Virus record (IMG/VR): IMGVR_UViG_2713896773_000025
Origin: a virus
Lineage: Duplodnaviria > Heunggongvirae > Uroviricota > Caudoviricetes
Strand: one strand, 5' to 3'
DNA: 32,043 nt
Position numbers and translations under genes: made by a program. Position 1 is the stretch's first letter, and every line of letters starts with the position of its first letter. Positions 6,439-29,077 of the stretch are shown here, in pieces. The notes beneath the pieces were generated by a model that was given only the letters and a program-made list of their open reading frames with translations, did not search any database and was not told the origin of the DNA.

Positions 6439-6605
6439 CAAACCGCAAAGTAAGAAGACTGCTGCGCATGCCTTTCAAATTCAGTAACCGTAAAGCGATG
6501 ACAGGCTGGCCATCAACGATACCCCGGCCTGGCAACGAGTGGTGCGACAAGAAGAAACGCAGCGCTGCACAGAACCGCTGGAAAAATCATGTGAGGTTTC
6601 TCTGA
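6435..6605 (+). CDS. small basic ORF (56 aa), below the ORF-track length cutoff
   Basis: ATG at 6435 overlaps upstream stop (ATGA) and its TGA at 6603..6605 overlaps the next ATG (TGATG); coupling pattern suggests a real gene. Translation MTNRKVRRLLRMPFKFSNRKAMTGWPSTIPRPGNEWCDKKKRSAAQNRWKNHVRFL. Confidence 0.3.
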   Translation: MTNRKVRRLLRMPFKFSNRKAMTGWPSTIPRPGNEWCDKKKRSAAQNRWKNHVRFL

Positions 6606-6979
6606 TGAATATAAATAAACATTCTGAGCGTAAGCCAGTGGTTTTCATTGCCGGTCCAATGACCGGGTATCACAACTTTAACCGCGATGAATTCAACGCT
6701 GAGGCTCGCATCCTGGAAGAGCGCGGCTTCACCGTTCTCAACCCGGCCATTCTTCCAGACGGCCTGCAGCATGAGCAGTACCTGCAAATTACATTGTCCA
6801 TGCTTGAGCAGGCTGATGCGGTATTCCTGCTGAACGGGTGGGAAAAGAGCACCGGCGCTACCAGGGAGTTTGATCGCGCCTGTGAGCTAGGGCTGCTGTT
6901 CCTTTACCAGGACTGGGAAAGCGTGTCGATTGCGATCCACCGTAAGCGTCACCCATTAACGGAGGTGAGTTATGCATAG
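6605..6979 (+). CDS. DUF4406 / nucleoside 2-deoxyribosyltransferase-like protein (124 aa)
   Basis: VVFIAGPMTG near the N-terminus and overall pattern recalled from the DUF4406 family; ATG at 6605 chosen over the GTG at 6539 because of stop-start coupling. Confidence 0.55.
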   Translation: MNINKHSERKPVVFIAGPMTGYHNFNRDEFNAEARILEERGFTVLNPAILPDGLQHEQYLQITLSMLEQADAVFLLNGWEKSTGATREFDRACELGLLFLYQDWESVSIAIHRKRHPLTEVSYA

Positions 6980-7580: not shown

Positions 7581-7622
7581 GTCATTACAGCAGGCACTTC
7601 ATAAAGTGCCTGCTGTAATGAC
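7581..7622. repeat. perfect 19-bp inverted repeat with 4-nt loop
   Basis: GTCATTACAGCAGGCACTT cata AAGTGCCTGCTGTAATGAC read directly from sequence; lies between the last early accessory ORF and the gemA RBS. Confidence 0.85.
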
Positions 7623-7641: not shown

Positions 7642-8118
7642 ATGTCCACGCCAGCAAAACGAGGCCTTATAGGTGCAATTAAAGCCGGTCAGGCATATCT
7701 GGGGTGGGATGAGGTAACCTACCGTAGTGTTCTGTCTCGCTTATGCAACGGTAAAACATCATCCACTAAATGCACCCTCGACGAGCTGCAGGCTGTCAGG
7801 GAATATATGCATGACAAGGGTTTTCCTCGCTACTCAGCAAAACACGGTCGACGCCCAAAGGTTGCCAATACGCGCGAGTCAATTCTTTCTAAAATTAACG
7901 CATTACTTGCAGATGCAAAACGTCCGTGGAATTATGCCGAGAAAATGTGCGATCATATGTTTCACGTCAAATACATCGAGTGGTTGACGACTGAACAGTT
8001 AACCAAACTCATGCAGGCTCTCAGCATTGATGCGAGTCGGCGAAAAAAGCGGGAGCGTAATAATGAATCTGGAACAGGTAACGGAGCTGCTGCCATCAGC
8101 AGTGATTCAAATAGCTGA
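7642..8118 (+). CDS. gemA: GemA-like regulatory protein (158 aa)
   Basis: ATG at 7642 with AGGAG RBS; KRGLIGAIKAGQAYLGWDE...YRSVL pattern recalled from the Mu GemA/DUF1018 family; sits immediately before the Mor-like gene. Confidence 0.7.
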   Translation: MSTPAKRGLIGAIKAGQAYLGWDEVTYRSVLSRLCNGKTSSTKCTLDELQAVREYMHDKGFPRYSAKHGRRPKVANTRESILSKINALLADAKRPWNYAEKMCDHMFHVKYIEWLTTEQLTKLMQALSIDASRRKKRERNNESGTGNGAAAISSDSNS

Positions 8119-8497
8119 CCTGATAGGCTTCCCGGCGACCGAGCAGCTTCTTTCTGCTTTTGGTGGCACCACGTTCCCGATAGGTAAAGGCCTCCGCGCT
8201 ATGGGGGCCAGCCGCGCAGCCCTCCTGCGCAATACTATCGGCGATGATAAAACCCAATTACTCATCAAGAATTTCGGCGGAGAAGTTCTCTATTTACCGC
8301 GCTGTGATCGTGCCCTTCGTGAATTACGCAACCGCCGCTTTCTCGCCGAGTTCGCCGAAGTGCGTGAACAAGGTTCATCCTCTCTTATGGCCATGACCTT
8401 TCTTTGCCCTAAGTATGGATTCAGCGATCGTTTTGGATGGCAGTTACTAAGCCAGCACAGACAAAACACATCAATCAATCAACAAGAACTTTTTTAA
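8063..8497 (+). CDS. mor: Mor/C-family transcriptional activator (144 aa)
   Basis: GGEVLYLPR...LRELRNRRFLAEF...YGFSDR resembles the Mor/C core GG.VYIPR...L..DL.I...F.G.N..EL...YG; overlaps the gemA 3' end. Confidence 0.75.
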   Translation: MNLEQVTELLPSAVIQIADLIGFPATEQLLSAFGGTTFPIGKGLRAMGASRAALLRNTIGDDKTQLLIKNFGGEVLYLPRCDRALRELRNRRFLAEFAEVREQGSSSLMAMTFLCPKYGFSDRFGWQLLSQHRQNTSINQQELF

Positions 8498-8510: not shown

Positions 8511-9011
8511 ATGGAGTTTTTAATTGCTTTAATTATATTCGGTGCTTCTGTTGCTGTTTACAAAGATGCTATCACCAATAACATTGCAAGACCTGCCCGT
8601 TGGGGGATTGGTTCAGCATTCATATTCTTCATTGTCATTCCATTGTATCTATTTAAAAGAAAAAAATTAATCGGAAGTGCATTATCAGACTCGGATGATG
8701 CCAGTAGTGTCCAGGGCGGAAAAAATGTTAGCCCCTTATCAGTTTATGTCCTGATGTTCATTTTAGCATTTATTGCCCCAGTGATTAATTTTTACAAAGG
8801 TGATTTACCTGGCTGTGATTCATCCGATGTCCATTCTGTTCTTACAGAGTTGCTGAATGGAGAAAAATTCTCTGAGCCCGCGCAAATGAGTTATGACCGG
8901 GTTAATGCAGTGAGACACTGTAACTTGACTGTTTCTGATAGAGTGTTTTCATATACAGTGAAATGGTACAGTGAAGAGAAAGATCAGTTTGTTGTACAGT
9001 TTGACAACTAA
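8511..9011 (+). CDS. AT-rich membrane protein, candidate moron (166 aa)
   Basis: Three hydrophobic helices plus a roughly 70-aa C-terminal soluble domain; gene is markedly more AT-rich than its neighbours. Confidence 0.6.
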   Translation: MEFLIALIIFGASVAVYKDAITNNIARPARWGIGSAFIFFIVIPLYLFKRKKLIGSALSDSDDASSVQGGKNVSPLSVYVLMFILAFIAPVINFYKGDLPGCDSSDVHSVLTELLNGEKFSEPAQMSYDRVNAVRHCNLTVSDRVFSYTVKWYSEEKDQFVVQFDN

Positions 9012-9013
9012 TT

Positions 9014-9091
9014 CCACTGAACCTCTTCACCTGATTATTCACCTAACCCGATGAAATACTGACGCCATCCCTTTTTAACCGGATGGCGTTA
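9014..9091 (+). promoter_or_regulatory. late-promoter-like element, copy 1: conserved motif CCACTGAACCTCTTCACC (9014..9031) plus hairpin 9060..9091 burying the endolysin start codon
   Basis: Motif is one of three near-identical copies; hairpin arms TGACGCCATCC / GGATGGCGTTA (one G-U pair) with a 10-nt loop; ATG at 9091. Confidence 0.55.
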
Positions 9092-9735
9092 TGCTTTTAA
9101 CACTCCCACAATTTCAGCGTGCAGCAGCTCTTTCGCCAGTGATGGCGCAACGATGGTTTGAACCATTCGGTAAAGCCACCGCTGAATTCGAAATTAATAC
9201 ACCCGCCAGACTTGCCGCCTTTATTGCTCAAACCGGCCATGAAAGCGCGGGTTTCAGTCGGCTCAGTGAAAATCTCTATTACTCTGATGCTGAGCGCGTG
9301 GCGCGTATTTTCCGCAGCGACTTCGATCTCAATAAGAATCGTATTATCGAGCCCTGCGAGATTGAATTTGCCCGACGCTATACCCGTAACCCTGAAAAAA
9401 TGGCGAATTATGTTTACGCAAATCAGGGGGGTAACGGTAATGAAGCATCAGGCGATGGCTGGCGCTTTCGCGGACGTGGCCTGATTCAGATTACCCTGCG
9501 CAATAATTACCGCCTTTGCGGTAAGGCGCTGGGCCTCGATCTCATCGCGAATCCCGATTTGTTACTGGAGTATCTCAACGCAGCCCGCAGCGCTGCCTGG
9601 TACTGGAAGGCAAATGGCTGCAACGAGCTGGCTGACAAAGGCAATTTTCTGGCCGTAACCCGGCGTATCAACCCTCCGGCTGAAGGTCAGGCTGACCGCG
9701 TGGCGCGGCTGAATGTCGCTAAGGCGGCGCTATGA
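9091..9735 (+). CDS. endolysin, glycoside hydrolase family 19 (chitinase-like) type (214 aa)
   Basis: AAFIAQTGHESAGF catalytic-region motif typical of GH19-type phage endolysins; first gene after the late-promoter-like element. Confidence 0.78.
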   Translation: MLLTLPQFQRAAALSPVMAQRWFEPFGKATAEFEINTPARLAAFIAQTGHESAGFSRLSENLYYSDAERVARIFRSDFDLNKNRIIEPCEIEFARRYTRNPEKMANYVYANQGGNGNEASGDGWRFRGRGLIQITLRNNYRLCGKALGLDLIANPDLLLEYLNAARSAAWYWKANGCNELADKGNFLAVTRRINPPAEGQADRVARLNVAKAAL

Positions 9736-9995
9736 AAATATCTCTGCGCGATCTGGTGACGAACCCGGCCACCGGTCGTCTCTCTACGTCAGACACCATC
9801 GTTTTTCTGGCCTTCCTGGTCAGTTCCTTCGTACTGGTCTGGCTCACCGTTACCCGCCCCGAAACTCCTGGTGAGCTGTATCTCACCTATCTGGGCGCGT
9901 GGGTGGCTCAGAGTCAGGCATCAAAACATATGTCCATCAAACGAGCCAGAGAGGTGCGCGATGTGGGAAGCAGCCCAGAAAATCCTGAGGGTTAG
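9732..9995 (+). CDS. single-TM lysis-associated protein, holin-like (87 aa)
   Basis: One hydrophobic helix IVFLAFLVSSFVLVWLTV; located between endolysin and spanin genes; role inferred from position only. Confidence 0.4.
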   Translation: MKISLRDLVTNPATGRLSTSDTIVFLAFLVSSFVLVWLTVTRPETPGELYLTYLGAWVAQSQASKHMSIKRAREVRDVGSSPENPEG

Positions 9996-10593
9996 CTGGA
10001 AACCGCTGCTCGTCGTCGTGGTTCTGGCAGGCTGCGGGATATGGTTCGGCACCTTCCTCACAGGCAACAAGCTGGACGCTCAGGCGCTGGCCTTCAGCCA
10101 GGAGAAGCAACGCCTGACTGATGGTTTCAGTGAAAAAGAACGGCAGTGGGATCAGGAGAGGCTCAGCGCTGCAAATCAGTATGCAGCTGACCTGAAGGCT
10201 GCACTTGATAAGCAGAACGCCTGGCAGCAGAAAGCGGATGCGCTGACCCGCGAGCTGGCTGAAAAGCAAAAGGCACATGACGAGACTGTTCGCGATCTTA
10301 AAAAGAGGCTTAAAGATGCACTTGATAAAGATGGTCCTGGTTATACCGGCATTGGCCCTGGCGGCCTGCAGCTCTTCCGTGAAGCCTTTGGCTACTCAGG
10401 ATCCGAAAGCCACCCCGCTGGTCAGCATCTGCCAGCCACCGCCAGCGGCGCTCCTGGTCATACCGGCCAGACCACAGGCACCGGTGGCGGACTCTCCCCC
10501 ACTGGAATAGTGTCGTTTTCAGCGGAATACGGCGCATGGTGCCAGCTCATTGAGGGCAGGCTGCAGGCAATAAATGAGTATTACAGGAAGTGA
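9961..10593 (+). CDS. i-spanin, Rz-like (210 aa)
   Basis: ATG at 9961 gives a short cytoplasmic N-terminus, a TM helix (PLLVVVVLAGCGIWFGTFL) and a long charged coiled-coil-like periplasmic region; contains an embedded lipoprotein ORF. Confidence 0.7.
   Translation: MWEAAQKILRVSWKPLLVVVVLAGCGIWFGTFLTGNKLDAQALAFSQEKQRLTDGFSEKERQWDQERLSAANQYAADLKAALDKQNAWQQKADALTRELAEKQKAHDETVRDLKKRLKDALDKDGPGYTGIGPGGLQLFREAFGYSGSESHPAGQHLPATASGAPGHTGQTTGTGGGLSPTGIVSFSAEYGAWCQLIEGRLQAINEYYRK
10316..10510 (+). CDS. o-spanin, Rz1-like lipoprotein embedded in +1 frame of the i-spanin (64 aa)
   Basis: MHLIKMVLVIPALALAAC with a lipobox-like LAAC, Pro-rich mature part and a C-terminal-proximal Cys; entirely inside 9961..10593 in another frame. 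Confidence 0.65.
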   Translation: MHLIKMVLVIPALALAACSSSVKPLATQDPKATPLVSICQPPPAALLVIPARPQAPVADSPPLE

Positions 10594-10844
10594 ACAACAT
10601 CATGACTCTTGATATGGCCTTTCAGATTGCGCTGGCGCTGGCTGCAACCTTCGGCACCATCTGGATACGCCGTCTGCAAAAAGACATTACCGACCTGGAA
10701 AAGGCGGTTGATCGCATCCGGGATGAATACCAGCGCCGTGAGGATGCGAAAAGTAACTACACCGCAATGATGGATGCGATGAGGGAGCTGCGAGCGGCTA
10801 TCGAGCGCATTGATAACAAACTGGACAGGAAACAGGACAAATGA
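10590..10844 (+). CDS. small membrane/coiled-coil protein, Mu-family (84 aa)
   Basis: N-terminal hydrophobic helix then charged helical region; ATGA-type overlap with the i-spanin stop. Confidence 0.5.
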   Translation: MNNIMTLDMAFQIALALAATFGTIWIRRLQKDITDLEKAVDRIRDEYQRREDAKSNYTAMMDAMRELRAAIERIDNKLDRKQDK

Positions 10845-16972: not shown

Positions 16973-17191
16973 ATGCATTACGGGAGCGGGCAACTGTACA
17001 CATTCAAAGCTTTCCTTGATTATTTCACCCCGCAGCAGTGGGTTTTCATTGGCATCTTAGGGGGGCTGGTTATAAAAGTTGCTGAGTGGTTCACTGACCG
17101 ATACTTTGCCCGCAGGCGTCAGTCTGCTAAACCCGATAAGCCGACAACCAAAGCGATCCTCAGCGATAATCCACTGAACCTCTTCATCTGA
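16973..17191 (+). CDS. doubtful 72-aa ORF in the G-I intergenic region
   Basis: Weak RBS; one hydrophobic helix; its 3' end overlaps the conserved late-promoter motif, so it may be spurious. Confidence 0.25.
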   Translation: MHYGSGQLYTFKAFLDYFTPQQWVFIGILGGLVIKVAEWFTDRYFARRRQSAKPDKPTTKAILSDNPLNLFI

Positions 17192-17227
17192 ACCTCCCCG
17201 CAGTGGTGCCGTATCGTCGGCACCATG
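17171..17227 (+). promoter_or_regulatory. late-promoter-like element, copy 2: motif CCACTGAACCTCTTCATC (17171..17188) plus hairpin 17204..17225 ending in the I-gene start codon
   Basis: Stem GGTGCCG / CGGCACC (17205..17211 / 17218..17224) extendable by a T-A pair that uses the A of the ATG at 17225; loop TATCGT. Confidence 0.55.
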
Positions 17228-23692: not shown

Positions 23693-25861
23693 ATGGCGCG
23701 TAACTTACAACTGGCGCTGCAGCTGCTTGCCCGTGATACCGGCTCTAAAGTGCTTAAGCAGGCACTGCAGGGCATCAGCCGTGATACCAAAGCGGCGCAA
23801 AAGACCGATGACGAGCTGGCGAAATCCCGCCAGCAGAACTCAACCACAGCGATTCGTGCCTCCCGTTCTCTGATTGAGGAATACCGTCGCGCCAGCTCGG
23901 CGCGATCTACCCTTGGTATTCGTTCTGAGCGCGATATTCAGCGTGAAATACAGCAGACCATGGCGGCCTACAACCGCCTTACCCGCACAGGCATGCTGTC
24001 CGCGAATGAGCAGAATCGGGCTTTCAGGGCCATGACTGACAGGGTCAAAACGCTGCGGACTGAACTTGGTGGCGTGAATGACTCAATGACGCGCATGCAG
24101 CGCTTTCGTGCTGCTGGTTCCAGCGTTGCTGCAGTTGCTGGCGGGATTGCTGCTGCAGGGGCCGTATTATCAACACCAGTATCTAAACAGATGGACTATC
24201 GCCAGCGACTTGCAATGATGGCCAATACTGCTTATGCCGATGAAGGGCTGCAAGGTCGCAGAAAAGGAATGGTGGAGATGGATTCGATGGTTCGCCAGGC
24301 TGTTCGTGCTGGCGGCGGAACAAAAGAATCAGCAGCTGATACCCTTGATACAATGCTGGCTTCAGGGGCTGTTGATATGCCGTCAGCAAAGGTGATGCTA
24401 CCTTTAATTCAAAAATATTCCACAGCCACTGGCGCAGCTCCAGAAGATTTGGCAAATATTGCCATAAAATTAAAACAATCGTTTGGCATAAAAGACGGTG
24501 AGCTTGAGTCTGCACTTAATATGGCAATTAGCGCTGGGCAAAGTGGCTCTTTTGAATTGAAAGATATGGCTAAGTGGCTTCCTAAGCAGCTTGCCAGTGC
24601 TGGCAATGTCGGTATGAAAGGTCTTGATGATTTTGCCGTCTTGCTTGGCTGGAACCAGGCGTCAGCTATTACATCAGGTTCACCGGACGAGGCCGGTAAT
24701 AACCTTAATAATTTATTGCTAAAGCTGAATAGTCAGGATGCTGCTAACGCTGCAGCACGGATTAAACTACCCAGCGGTAAAGGAATTGACCTCTCTGGAA
24801 GTCTTGCAAAAGCTGTTGGTAACGGTATAAATCCTCTAGAAGCTTTTAACACGATTGTTGATAAAATTGTGGCTTCAAATCCAGCATATAAAAAACTTGA
24901 AGATAAACTCAAAACAGCACCGGAAAGTGAACGTAAAAATATAATTAGTTCGCAAGCAAGGATTCTTGAAGGTTCTGGTATAGGTAAAATTATTGCTGAC
25001 CAGCAGGCGCTATTAGCTCTATTAGGGTATAGAGGGAATAAAAAATACACCCAAGACGTAATTTCAGGGGCGAATTCACAACGTAATTTACCAGTTGGTA
25101 ATACTGCCGGTAACATCAACTTTGCTTTAATGTCAGAACAGCCGGGATATAAAACTGGGCAGTTAAAAAACGAACAGGACTTTGCTGCAATGGATTCCAT
25201 TGCCCCTTTATCTGATGCACTGGGTGACATTTCAGAAAAATTAACCAAATATGCTGGTGAGTATCCGGGGCTAACCACTGCGATTGCAGGTGCCACCACT
25301 GGCATTAAAGCCATGACAGCAGCGGCTGTAGCTTTTGCCGGGCTCAATTTCCTGACGGGGGGCGGAATAAAAATGCCTGGTTCTCCTGCAGGGGGAGTTC
25401 CGTCTGCTGGCGGTACTGCTCTGGGGCGCACCTGGTCCGCTATCCGGGGTGGTGCAGGTAAAGTTCTGGGGCGCGTTGCTGCTCCGCTGGCACTCTACCA
25501 GGGCATGAAGGATGCGCCGCTCGTTCATGTTGAGCGAGGCGATGCTGATGCGCGTGCGAGACTCAAGGTCGACAATTATTCCAGTGAGTCAGCACGCATG
25601 CTGGATGCAGTAAAAGCCCGCCCCGGATTGCTGGATGCCGTGGATGAGATCAAATCATGGTGGAGTTCACCGGCCACTATGGGTCAAAACACACCAGCAA
25701 CCACAGGCGTACCGTCTTATCTGCTGCCCCAGCAGCAACAAAAATCACAACCAATTAACCTCACCACAAAGCTGGTATTAGACGGACGTGAAATTGCATC
25801 AGCTGTTAATGAATACAACGGCGAACAATCCGTTCGCGGCTCAACAGGAGGCCCGCAGTGA
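23693..25861 (+). CDS. tail tape measure protein (722 aa)
   Basis: Long Ala/Gly-rich helical protein after the chaperone pair; central portion is AT-rich relative to flanks. Confidence 0.88.
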   Translation: MARNLQLALQLLARDTGSKVLKQALQGISRDTKAAQKTDDELAKSRQQNSTTAIRASRSLIEEYRRASSARSTLGIRSERDIQREIQQTMAAYNRLTRTGMLSANEQNRAFRAMTDRVKTLRTELGGVNDSMTRMQRFRAAGSSVAAVAGGIAAAGAVLSTPVSKQMDYRQRLAMMANTAYADEGLQGRRKGMVEMDSMVRQAVRAGGGTKESAADTLDTMLASGAVDMPSAKVMLPLIQKYSTATGAAPEDLANIAIKLKQSFGIKDGELESALNMAISAGQSGSFELKDMAKWLPKQLASAGNVGMKGLDDFAVLLGWNQASAITSGSPDEAGNNLNNLLLKLNSQDAANAAARIKLPSGKGIDLSGSLAKAVGNGINPLEAFNTIVDKIVASNPAYKKLEDKLKTAPESERKNIISSQARILEGSGIGKIIADQQALLALLGYRGNKKYTQDVISGANSQRNLPVGNTAGNINFALMSEQPGYKTGQLKNEQDFAAMDSIAPLSDALGDISEKLTKYAGEYPGLTTAIAGATTGIKAMTAAAVAFAGLNFLTGGGIKMPGSPAGGVPSAGGTALGRTWSAIRGGAGKVLGRVAAPLALYQGMKDAPLVHVERGDADARARLKVDNYSSESARMLDAVKARPGLLDAVDEIKSWWSSPATMGQNTPATTGVPSYLLPQQQQKSQPINLTTKLVLDGREIASAVNEYNGEQSVRGSTGGPQ

Positions 25862-29015: not shown

Positions 29016-29077
29016 CCACTGAACCCCTTCACCGATAATTTAAATTTCCATGCCGGTAGTATTACGGCATGGAAATG
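29016..29077 (+). promoter_or_regulatory. late-promoter-like element, copy 3: motif CCACTGAACCCCTTCACC (29016..29033) plus 12-bp hairpin 29044..29076 covering both candidate start codons
   Basis: Stem ATTTCCATGCCG / CGGCATGGAAAT with loop GTAGTATTA; ATGs at 29069 and 29075 are inside the 3' arm. Confidence 0.55.

What the first reader, a model, noticed from the sequence alone, without database searches (positions are those of the whole stretch)
8511..9011. AT-rich membrane-protein gene inserted between mor and the lysis operon: candidate moron (superinfection exclusion or abortive-infection type)
The gene is visibly more AT-rich than the surrounding GC-rich prophage, indicating separate acquisition. 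Its product has three predicted TM helices and a Cys-containing C-terminal domain. It occupies the slot where Mu carries the late activator C, which is not seen here. Membrane proteins at such junctions are typical lysogenic-conversion or phage-exclusion cargo. I recognise no family for it.
Basis: partly seen in the sequence, partly recalled or inferred. Interest (0 to 1): 0.55.

Follow-up and report, generated by a model that had tools for sequence, protein, structure and literature searches.

The report
Swappable membrane-protein cassette in Mu-like prophage
The AT-rich gene is real and is one of at least five unrelated, interchangeable envelope-protein genes that occupy a single slot between the Mor activator gene and the late lysis promoter of enterobacterial Mu-like prophages; what it does is unproven, and blocking rival phages at the cell envelope is the best guess.

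Summary
ORF 8511-9011 (+) encodes 166 aa and is the lowest-GC 501-bp stretch of the window (GC 0.379, GC3 0.34, window 0.532). The protein has three hydrophobic helices and a C-terminal alpha/beta domain with two invariant cysteines. It lies between mor and a GH19 endolysin, and the window has no second Mor/C paralogue.

In 87 related Mu-like loci the interval between the mor stop and a conserved late-promoter motif always holds exactly one ORF. These ORFs fall into five main unrelated families, all AT-rich and nearly all with an export signal or hydrophobic helices. Backbones 94-98% identical to the window carry a different family. So the gene is swappable accessory cargo under strong purifying selection (dN/dS 0.04-0.19).

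It is not a classical moron. It starts 13 nt after mor, ends 3 nt before the late-promoter motif, and has no detectable promoter or terminator, so it is probably co-transcribed with mor.

No Pfam, PHROG, NCBIfam, PADLOC or PDB relative was found. Remote homologues sit just upstream of the lysis genes in at least three other divergent Mu-like lineages, and others lie in non-phage contexts.

Best guess: an envelope-level exclusion factor. The main rival is a lysis modulator. Function is untested.

The parts
8511..9011 (+). Gene X: 166-aa membrane protein, the AT-rich cassette gene (stop codon 9009-9011)
   Evidence: ORF. GC 0.379 and GC3 0.341. 16 close clusters at 47-98% identity. dN/dS 0.04-0.19. 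The exact protein is found on 201 contigs of Enterobacteriaceae, always annotated as hypothetical.
8514..8654 (+). N-terminal pair of hydrophobic helices (aa 2-22 and 28-48) with the conserved motif Y17-x-D19-A20 ... W31-G32-x-G34 ... P44-x-Y46 ... R50, followed by KRKK (aa 49-52)
   Evidence: Invariant columns. Helices in the AF2 model. The same module occurs alone or fused to zinc ribbons in many small proteins. PLDc_N (PF13396) matches only weakly, with E 0.023-0.13, below the cut-off.
8733..8798 (+). Third hydrophobic helix (aa 75-96)
   Evidence: Hydropathy maximum of 2.33. AF2 helix 75-96.
8799..9008 (+). C-terminal alpha/beta domain (aa 97-166) with invariant Cys102 (8814-8816) and Cys137 (8919-8921); probably periplasmic and disulfide-bonded
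8063..8497 (+). mor: the only Mor/C-family activator gene in the window. Its stop is 13 nt before the X start. Its last ~55 nt fall inside the segment that differs from sibling phages.
   Evidence: Pfam Mor 1.8e-8 and phrog_836 1.7e-39. No paralogue. Breakpoint at about 8440.
9015..9031 (+). 17-nt motif CACTGAACCTCTTCACC, the right-hand boundary of the cassette slot; probable binding site of the Mor-family activator at the late lysis promoter
   Evidence: There are three exact copies in the window (9015, 17172, 29017), against 0.01 expected. Each is intergenic and lies ahead of a late operon. The motif is conserved downstream of every cassette type in related loci.
9055..9060 (+). -10-like hexamer AATACT, at motif positions 41-46
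   Evidence: The same spacing gives TATCGT and TAGTAT at the other two motif copies (counted from the sequences). ATACTG is invariant in 22 aligned loci. Promoter function is inferred.
9060..9091 (+). GC-rich hairpin whose 3' arm carries the Shine-Dalgarno-like GGATGG and the A of the endolysin ATG
   Evidence: dG -18.1 kcal/mol, z -5.96. It is present in all 34 distinct variants, with 17 different 5' arms.
9091..9735 (+). GH19 endolysin, first gene of the late lysis cassette (context)
   Evidence: PF00182 2e-13 and phrog_181 3.9e-81.
9732..9995 (+). DUF2644 small membrane protein with a charged C-terminal tail: the likely holin candidate, which would make the lysis cassette complete without X (context)
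   Evidence: PF10841 and phrog_1322. The holin role is inferred from its position and sequence.

Best explanation
Gene X is one allele of a single-gene, recombination-swapped accessory cassette. The cassette fills the interval between the mor stop codon and the late lysis promoter in a lineage of enterobacterial Mu-like (transposable) prophages.

Shown:
- The slot always holds one ORF.
- At least five unrelated, AT-rich families alternate there on near-identical backbones; nearly all have an export signal or hydrophobic helices.
- X is under strong purifying selection.
- X has no detectable promoter or terminator of its own.

Inferred:
- X is transcribed as the last gene of the mor (early/middle) unit on infection or induction.
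- It inserts in the inner membrane through its three helices. The KRKK linker faces the cytoplasm, and the 70-aa disulfide-bonded alpha/beta domain faces the periplasm.
- There it acts as an envelope-level exclusion factor. It would bind a component of an incoming phage's genome-delivery apparatus, or the host inner-membrane or periplasmic factor that apparatus needs. This resembles what P22 SieA and HK97 gp15 do.
- Cassette swapping would reflect an arms race over target specificity.

The cassette and architecture part is near certain. The exclusion mechanism is a best guess.
For: - Slot survey: 87 loci, slot length 298-593 nt, always one ORF. Five main families (n = 24, 23, 18, 16, 3), with mean GC 0.37-0.39. 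Nearly all have a signal peptide or hydrophobic helices.
- Replacement on 94-98% identical flanks, with breakpoints at about 8440 and 9014.
- No IS-like repeats flank the cassette, so exchange is by homologous recombination in the flanks.
- dN/dS is 0.04-0.19.
- No sigma-70-like promoter or terminator lies around X on the + strand. The gap to mor is 13 nt, and sister cassettes abut or overlap the mor stop.
- A late-promoter motif starts 3 nt after the X stop and recurs ahead of two other late operons.
- Topology: charge bias and two invariant Cys. In relatives a C-terminal zinc ribbon follows TM2, which places that side in the cytoplasm.
- The lysis cassette is complete without X. X coexists with a canonical Holin_2-3 gene in Pectobacterium. 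In siblings it is replaced by signal-peptide proteins.
- Family members also occur outside phages, one of them among GmrSD, WYL and SIR2 genes.
- In Mu the positionally equivalent membrane proteins gp19 and gp20 are middle genes that are dispensable for lysis and are not holins (PMC9239132).
Against: - There is no sequence or profile similarity to SieA (hhalign probability 1.1%), to Mu gp19 (0.4%), or to any PADLOC model.
- There is no significant structural match in PDB or BFVD.
- Without its own promoter X may be silent in the lysogen, which is where exclusion is classically exerted.
- The family sits directly upstream of the lysis genes in at least four divergent Mu-like lineages. This could instead point to a lysis-linked role.
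- Topology is not fully settled. Loop 1 is also net positive (+1.45), and some N-terminal zinc-ribbon relatives have an extra hydrophobic segment.
- There are no expression or phenotype data.
Confidence: 0.4

Rival explanations
1. X is a lysis modulator, such as an antiholin, a holin accessory or a lysis-timing sensor. Its periplasmic domain would regulate the holin or endolysin of the adjacent cassette, in the manner of T4 RI acting on holin T.
For: X-family genes lie immediately upstream of the lysis genes in at least four divergent Mu-like lineages with different endolysin types: GH19, Holin_2-3 + SLT, Peptidase_M15_4, and a muramidase/SLT-like protein. The protein combines a membrane anchor with a periplasmic domain. 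Natural 89-96 aa variants with only the three helices exist and resemble class I holins in size.
Against: - X is separated from the lysis genes by the late promoter motif, so it is not in the late lysis transcript.
- On near-identical backbones it is replaced by unrelated signal-peptide proteins.
- It coexists with a canonical holin.
- Homologues occur in non-phage contexts with no endolysin nearby.
- It has no charged cytoplasmic C-terminal tail.
- The Mu positional analogues gp19 and gp20 are not holins and are dispensable for lysis (PMC9239132).
Confidence: 0.17
2. This is the first reader's version: a classical moron expressed from the repressed prophage through its own promoter, giving lysogenic conversion or superinfection exclusion in the lysogen.
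For: The composition is atypical. The gene is accessory and replaceable. It encodes an envelope protein. AT-rich DNA can carry promoters that a consensus scan misses.
Against: No promoter-like site lies upstream of X on the + strand, and there is no terminator after it. The intergenic gap is 13 nt. Sister cassettes overlap the mor stop codon, which suggests translational coupling. The 100 nt upstream of the cassette show no shared promoter-like block by eye across 60 distinct variants; this was not scanned formally.
Confidence: 0.18
3. X is a single-protein abortive-infection or toxic membrane effector. The periplasmic domain would sense an incoming phage or envelope damage, and the three-helix module would depolarise the membrane.
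For: One distant homologue lies among defence genes (GmrSD, WYL, SIR2). The three-helix module is conserved and can occur without the C-terminal domain.
Against: No PADLOC match. No partner gene is conserved across contexts. Killing its own host cell would be costly for a gene that, by this analysis, is expressed during the phage's own lytic cycle.
Confidence: 0.08
4. X is a non-functional hitch-hiking ORF, or a mis-called ORF in AT-rich spacer DNA.
For: No known family matches, and every database entry is annotated as hypothetical.
Against: dN/dS is 0.04-0.19. There are 33 invariant columns across homologues at 47-98% identity. 218 representative clusters have E <= 1e-3. The co-evolution-based fold is confident (pLDDT 91).
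Confidence: 0.02

Closest known systems
P22 SieA (superinfection exclusion protein A)
   Same: It is about 162-164 aa with three predicted transmembrane helices. It is an inner-membrane accessory gene of a temperate enterobacterial phage. It exists as several mutually dissimilar sequence types, and it blocks DNA injection without other phage proteins (PMC10461980).
   Different: No detectable homology (hhalign 1.1%). The helix arrangement differs (one N-terminal helix, a soluble loop, then two C-terminal helices). sieA has an annotated promoter of its own and is expressed from the prophage. X has no detectable promoter, and it has a two-Cys C-terminal domain.
HK97 gp15 moron (Cumby et al. 2012; from my own knowledge, and cited within PMC10461980)
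   Same: It is a small inner-membrane protein encoded by an accessory element at a fixed slot in a temperate phage, and it blocks genome entry.
   Different: gp15 is a textbook moron with its own expression signals, located in the tail-gene region. It has a single TM helix. It was not compared by sequence here.
Mu gp19 / gp20 (middle-operon membrane proteins between mor and lys)
   Same: They occupy the same genomic interval (after mor, before the late Plys promoter and endolysin). They are membrane proteins expressed before the late genes. They are dispensable for lysis, are not holins, and have unknown function.
   Different: No homology (hhalign 0.4%). Mu has three genes plus the second activator C in the interval, and a Mor-dependent promoter Pm in front of them. 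Here there is one gene and no C.
Class I holins (e.g. lambda S105) and the T4 holin T / antiholin RI pair
   Same: They are small phage membrane proteins next to an endolysin gene. Class I holins have three TM helices. T4 T and RI have periplasmic domains (own knowledge).
   Different: X lies outside the late lysis transcript. It has no charged cytoplasmic tail. It is not conserved among sibling phages. It coexists with a Pfam-recognised holin in Pectobacterium.
Defence/accessory hotspots of P2- and P4-like phages, and 'variable islands' of phage genomes (Rousset et al. 2022; 10.1101/2024.10.15.618418)
   Same: A fixed locus between conserved core genes where unrelated cargo genes replace one another. 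The cargo is mostly unannotated.
   Different: The cargo here is a single small exported or membrane protein rather than a multi-gene defence system. It is embedded in the mor operon with no transcription signals of its own.

Membership tests
Moron (Juhala/Hendrix definition) | Present in some phages and absent or replaced in close relatives, between genes that are otherwise adjacent | tested here: met
   The gene is replaced by unrelated genes on flanks 94-98% identical to the window. There are five main families among 87 loci. No empty slot was seen, so this is replacement, not insertion.
Moron (Juhala/Hendrix definition) | Nucleotide composition differs from the surrounding genome | tested here: met
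   GC is 0.379 against 0.532, and GC3 is 0.341. This is the lowest 501-bp window. The same holds in homologous loci, where gene GC is 0.37-0.41 and locus GC 0.51-0.54.
Moron (Juhala/Hendrix definition) | Own promoter upstream and own terminator downstream (an autonomous transcription unit) | tested here: not met
   No + strand promoter-like site lies upstream and no terminator follows. The gap to mor is 13 nt, and sister cassettes overlap the mor stop. The consensus scan is crude, so a weak or atypical promoter is not excluded.
Moron (Juhala/Hendrix definition) | Expressed from the repressed prophage | not testable with these tools
   Needs RNA-seq or 5'-RACE of a lysogen.
Holin | Small protein with at least one TM helix, encoded next to the endolysin | tested here: met
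   Three hydrophobic helices. The gene ends 79 nt before the endolysin ATG.
Holin | Transcribed with the late lysis genes | tested here: not met
   The late-promoter motif (three copies in the window, each ahead of a late operon) lies between X and the endolysin. Promoter function itself is inferred.
Holin | Needed by, and so conserved among, sibling phages with the same cytoplasmic endolysin | tested here: not met
   Siblings with a 95-98% identical lysis cassette carry signal-peptide proteins with no TM helices in place of X.
Holin | Lethal membrane permeabilisation that can be triggered by depolarisation | not testable with these tools
   Needs an expression and DNP-triggering assay like the one done for Mu gp19, gp20 and gp25 (PMC9239132).
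SieA family | Sequence or profile homology to P22, HS1 or related SieA types | tested here: not met
   hhalign of the 55-sequence profile against P22 SieA gives probability 1.1%.
Superinfection exclusion protein (functional class) | Blocks adsorption or DNA entry of a superinfecting phage when expressed alone | not testable with these tools
   Needs a phage challenge experiment.
PLDc_N (PF13396) two-helix membrane module | Score above the Pfam gathering threshold (23.3 bits) | tested here: not met
   4 of 55 family members hit it, with best E 0.023. P0017 scores 12.7 bits over profile positions 1-41 of 42. The window protein gives no hit.
Known anti-phage defence proteins (PADLOC-DB v2) | Match to any of 5027 models | tested here: not met
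   No hit at E <= 1 for X, for three relatives, or for two alternative cassette proteins.
Mu gp19-like middle-operon membrane protein | Homology to Mu gp19 | tested here: not met
   hhalign probability 0.4%. The two share genomic position only.

The most novel reading that the evidence does not exclude
The mor-to-Plys interval may be a dedicated cargo bay for single-gene envelope effectors in transposable phages. In it, at least five unrelated exported proteins would be made early in the lytic cycle, co-transcribed with the late activator, to exclude competing phages or to disarm envelope-linked host defences.

X would be the founding member of a widespread, undescribed membrane-protein family. 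The family combines a WVYxDA two-helix module, a third helix and a two-Cys periplasmic domain that also occurs in 3-5 tandem repeats. It has been recruited to this slot repeatedly, or anciently, in Mu-like phages of hosts with GC from 0.43 to 0.66.
Probability: 0.3. Interest if true: 0.6.

Novelty: new member of a known kind. Interest (0 to 1): 0.4.

Why it matters
Variable slots in temperate phages (the P2/P4 hotspots, the HK97 and P22 morons) have been a rich source of exclusion and defence genes. This one has three useful properties. It is very compact (one gene). It is sharply bounded (mor stop on the left, a 17-nt late-promoter motif on the right). It is populated only by uncharacterised proteins, nearly all with export signals or membrane helices. 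That gives a ready-made panel of about five protein families to test for phage exclusion in Salmonella, E. coli, Enterobacter and Klebsiella.

The result also bears on an old loose end in Mu biology: what the non-essential membrane proteins between mor and lys (gp19, gp20) are for. In addition, it defines a domain family with no Pfam entry. If X turns out to be inert or merely a lysis-timing modifier, the finding is ordinary phage accessory cargo.

Tried and rejected
- Pfam, PHROGs, NCBIfam and PADLOC scans of X, its relatives and the alternative cassette proteins gave no informative family. The alternatives fall in PHROGs 5882, 29261 and 36303, all of unknown function.
- tblastn of X against 50,697 GenBank phage records gave no hit.
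- A first AF2 run with 15 close homologues was too poor to use (pLDDT 54). A second run with 55 sequences was good.
- Foldseek against BFVD gave nothing at E <= 0.001.
- The afdb50 library was unavailable.
- A profile search against PDB sequences gave nothing.
- Homology to Mu gp19 and to P22 SieA was rejected.
- The holin idea was rejected for the reasons given in the membership table.
It was replaced by per-sequence folding.
The sub-alignment A4 returned only 3 loci.
- Rfam found nothing in the window.
- No IS-like or att-like repeats flank the cassette.
- Topology could not be settled by the charge rule alone, because loop 1 and the post-TM2 segment are both positive.

Full report
**1. The observation**

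An AAGG-type ribosome-binding site lies about 9 nt upstream.

Its GC content is 0.379, against 0.532 for the window. GC3 is 0.341, whereas the neighbouring genes have GC3 of 0.44-0.66. The dip is therefore in codon usage and not just a by-product of a hydrophobic protein. Only 0.36% of all 501-bp windows are as AT-rich, and the window-wide minimum overlaps this gene.

Hydropathy shows three hydrophobic segments. An AlphaFold2 model built on 55 homologues is confident (pLDDT 91, pTM 0.75). It shows helices 2-22, 28-63 and 75-96, followed by a helix (105-114) packed on four beta strands. An earlier model built on 15 close homologues was unusable (pLDDT 54).

The gene is flanked by GemA and Mor upstream. 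Downstream lie a GH19 endolysin, a DUF2644 membrane protein, an Rz-like spanin and terL. The window as a whole is a Mu-like prophage that starts with the transposase genes. No second Mor/C paralogue exists among 293 stop-to-stop ORFs.

**2. The gene is real and constrained**

A word-indexed search found 16 close clusters (47-98% identity), all from Enterobacterales. The exact protein occurs on 201 contigs from Salmonella, E. coli, Enterobacter, Citrobacter and Cronobacter, and is always annotated as hypothetical.

Thirty-three columns are invariant. They include Y17, D19, A20, W31, G32, G34, P44, Y46, R50, C102, R135 and C137. Pairwise dN/dS is 0.04-0.19. This is a functional protein-coding gene, not decaying cargo.

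**3. The slot**

Every close homologue examined (Klebsiella, Pantoea, Pectobacterium, Salmonella) sits in a Mu-like prophage directly after mor and directly before the lysis genes. This holds whether the lysis genes are GH19 + DUF2644 or Holin_2-3 + SLT.

Two relatives of the window phage carry unrelated ~159-aa proteins with signal-peptide-like N-termini at the same place. They are E. coli FDAARGOS_1303 and Klebsiella phage ST405-OXA48phi1.1. Against the E. coli prophage and IMG/VR locus L025, the window is 94-98% identical up to about 8440 and again from exactly 9014. Nothing between these points can be aligned.

I then collected 84 further loci through their Mor protein. For each I extracted the interval between the mor stop and a conserved downstream motif. 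The interval is 298-593 nt and always contains one ORF; it is never empty.

Together with L001-L008, 87 slot proteins fall into eight clusters, five of them recurrent (n = 24, 23, 18, 16, 3). All five are AT-rich, with mean gene GC of 0.37-0.39. Three families have signal-peptide-like N-termini (by inspection of the sequences). The X family has three TM helices. A small fifth family has a zinc-ribbon-like motif plus a hydrophobic C-terminal stretch in its full-length members. None has a known function.

The X cluster also contains natural 89-96 aa versions that keep the three helices but lack the C-terminal domain. No IS-like or direct repeats flank the cassette. Exchange by homologous recombination in the conserved flanks is therefore the simplest mechanism.

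Where X is present in more distant backbones (L003, L008), it aligns at the DNA level about as well as its flanks, at about 70%. So X is also inherited vertically within lineages.

**4. Transcription context**

X starts 13 nt after the mor stop. In sister cassettes the start codon abuts or overlaps the mor stop. A consensus scan finds no + strand promoter upstream of X and no terminator after it.

Three nucleotides after the X stop begins a 17-nt motif, CACTGAACCYCTTCAYC. It occurs exactly three times in the window, at 9015, 17172 and 29017, against 0.01 copies expected by chance. Each copy is intergenic and on the + strand. The three copies lie ahead of the lysis cassette, of a 371-aa ORF at 17225, and of a 116-aa ORF at 29069.

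This layout mirrors the C-dependent late promoters of Mu (Plys, PI, PP; from established knowledge and the Mu annotation). A -10-like hexamer sits at motif positions 41-46 in all three copies (AATACT, TATCGT, TAGTAT). This would place the motif at about -52 to -36, where Mor and C bind in Mu (my own knowledge).

I therefore infer that X belongs to the mor transcription unit and not to the late lysis transcript. This is an inference from sequence; no transcript data were available.

**5. The protein family**

A full HMMER profile search over 1.84 billion representatives found 218 proteins at E <= 1e-3. They are of three kinds:
- Proteins of 150-206 aa with the same full architecture.
- Proteins with one anchor followed by 3-5 tandem copies of the C-terminal domain. 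Each copy carries the LPxCDS...R-x-C...W signature.
- Many small proteins that have only the N-terminal two-helix module (WVYxDA...W-x-x-G...P-x-Y-L-x-x-R). This module is often followed or preceded by a zinc ribbon.

No Pfam family covers the C-terminal domain. The N-terminal module gives only sub-threshold PLDc_N hits.

Across 47 full-length members the segment after helix 2 is the most positive (net +2.3). The segment after helix 3 is negative (-1.6). Every C-terminal domain has exactly two cysteines, both invariant. In relatives a C-terminal zinc ribbon follows helix 2. This argues for a cytoplasmic linker and a periplasmic, disulfide-bonded C-terminal domain. The orientation of helix 1 stays uncertain, because loop 1 is also net positive.

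**6. Distant relatives and their contexts**

P0167 is 23% identical to X. It lies right after Mor and before a DUF2730 (Mu gp25-like) gene in a GC-rich Mu-like element (L095 = L110).

P0059 (24% identical) lies after Mor plus a 67-aa ORF, and before a weak muramidase/SLT-like gene (L106).

An IMG/VR contig with GC 0.43 has a family member directly before a Peptidase_M15_4 endolysin. A Mu gp27 homologue lies 2.5 kb downstream (L111).

So the family recurs just upstream of the lysis genes in at least four divergent transposable-phage lineages.

Other members are in non-phage or unclear contexts. One lies among GmrSD, WYL, PP2C and SIR2 genes, which looks like a defence island (L096). Another is next to smpB. 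Two more are in unremarkable neighbourhoods. In GC-rich hosts the gene is only 3-8 points below its surroundings and has host-like GC3. The strong AT bias is therefore a property of the enterobacterial cassette pool and not of the family.

**7. Comparison with what is known**

In Mu itself the mor-lys interval contains gp18, gp19 (4 TM), gp20 (1 TM) and C. [quoted passage not shown] They can be inactivated without affecting lysis, and they do not behave as holins in DNP-triggering assays. Their function is unknown (PMC9239132). X is not homologous to gp19, but it is its positional counterpart.

P22 SieA is the closest functional analogue. It is 162-164 aa, has three TM helices, sits in the inner membrane and blocks DNA injection. 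It exists in three mutually dissimilar types (PMC10461980). There is no homology to X, and sieA has its own annotated promoter.

**8. Weighing the explanations**

Five features are what one expects of arms-race cargo such as exclusion factors:
- hypervariability on near-identical backbones;
- export or membrane insertion for nearly all the alternative families;
- purifying selection within each family;
- a foreign composition;
- family members outside phages.

A lysis role is suggested only by position, and that position is also simply the end of the early operon, the natural cargo site in this phage type. Four points argue against a lysis role. The late promoter lies between X and the lysis genes. 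Siblings carry non-membrane proteins in place of X. X coexists with a canonical holin. The precedent in Mu is that the equivalent genes are dispensable for lysis.

The main weakness of the exclusion idea is that X has no visible promoter of its own. If it acts, it may act during the lytic cycle rather than in the lysogen. T5 Llp and the early exclusion genes of Pseudomonas transposable phages are precedents for that (my own knowledge; compare PMC9936078).

I put exclusion at the envelope at about 0.4. The lysis-modulator rival gets about 0.17, a classical prophage-expressed moron about 0.18, and an abortive-infection-type effector about 0.08.

**9. Verdict**

The 'moron' label is partly supported: the gene is a swappable, compositionally foreign cassette, but it is not an autonomous transcription unit. 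The proposed function is plausible but untested.

This is a new member of a well-known kind of element, namely phage accessory cargo at a variable slot. It also defines an undescribed protein family and a neatly bounded hotspot that is worth an experimental screen. Interest is moderate.

Noticed in passing
window 9015-9031, 17172-17188, 29017-29033 (+): There are three exact copies of the 17-nt motif CACTGAACCYCTTCAYC, against 0.01 expected. Each is intergenic and lies ahead of a late operon: the lysis genes, a 371-aa ORF at 17225, and a 116-aa ORF at 29069. Each has a -10-like hexamer at motif positions 41-46. They look like the Mor/C-type late promoters of this phage, equivalent to Mu Plys, PI and PP.
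   Followed up: partly
window 9060-9091, 17203-17226, 29044-29076 (+); Plys regions of L001-L091: Each late-promoter motif is followed by a stable GC-rich hairpin (dG -16 to -20 kcal/mol, z -4 to -6). The 3' arm reaches or covers the start codon, and at Plys it also covers the Shine-Dalgarno sequence. At Plys the hairpin is kept in all 34 distinct variants, with 17 different 5' arms. The predicted late transcription start would fall inside or after the 5' arm. Only read-through transcripts from upstream could then form the hairpin. This might insulate the late genes from translation of early read-through RNA, or it might terminate the early operon. Neither idea was tested.
   Followed up: partly
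window 7581-7622: A perfect 19-bp inverted repeat with a 4-nt loop (GTCATTACAGCAGGCACTT-TATG-AAGTGCCTGCTGTAATGAC) overlaps the start of the gemA ORF. The scan flagged it as terminator-like on the minus strand, and it is conserved in L025. It could be an operator, a terminator or an RNA-processing site at the point where Mu has a semi-early promoter.
   Followed up: no
window about 24370-25390: This is the second low-GC patch of the window (501-bp GC below 0.43). It lies inside the 722-aa ORF 23693-25861, which is in the tape-measure-like position among the tail genes.
   Followed up: no
L001 3903-4382 and L002 4902-5381: Representatives of two otherwise unrelated alternative cassette families share the N-terminal MKY and the C-terminal IIDVT(E/Q) ending. 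This suggests either recombination joints inside the coding ends or a shared terminal signal.
   Followed up: no
P0044, P0045, P0053, P0054, P0062: The 70-aa two-Cys C-terminal domain of X occurs as 3-5 tandem repeats behind a membrane anchor in 380-490 aa proteins from metagenomes. No Pfam model covers it, so it is an undescribed repeat domain.
   Followed up: partly
L112 3459-4256: A viral-contig protein has the same three-helix N-terminal module as the X family but a different, Cys-free ~160-aa C-terminal domain. This indicates that domains are shuffled on a common membrane anchor.
   Followed up: no
window 6539-6979 (+): The early region carries a DUF4406 / nucleoside 2-deoxyribosyltransferase-like gene (PF14359 3e-27, phrog_355). 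It may be a nucleotide-metabolism or DNA-modification accessory gene.
   Followed up: no
window 10590-10844 (+): An 84-aa protein with an N-terminal TM helix and a coiled coil sits where Mu has the releasin gp25 (DUF2730). It matches phrog_462 but not Pfam DUF2730. This phage's endolysin shows no obvious hydrophobic SAR-like N-terminus, which bears on the open question of what DUF2730-like proteins do alongside cytoplasmic endolysins.
   Followed up: no
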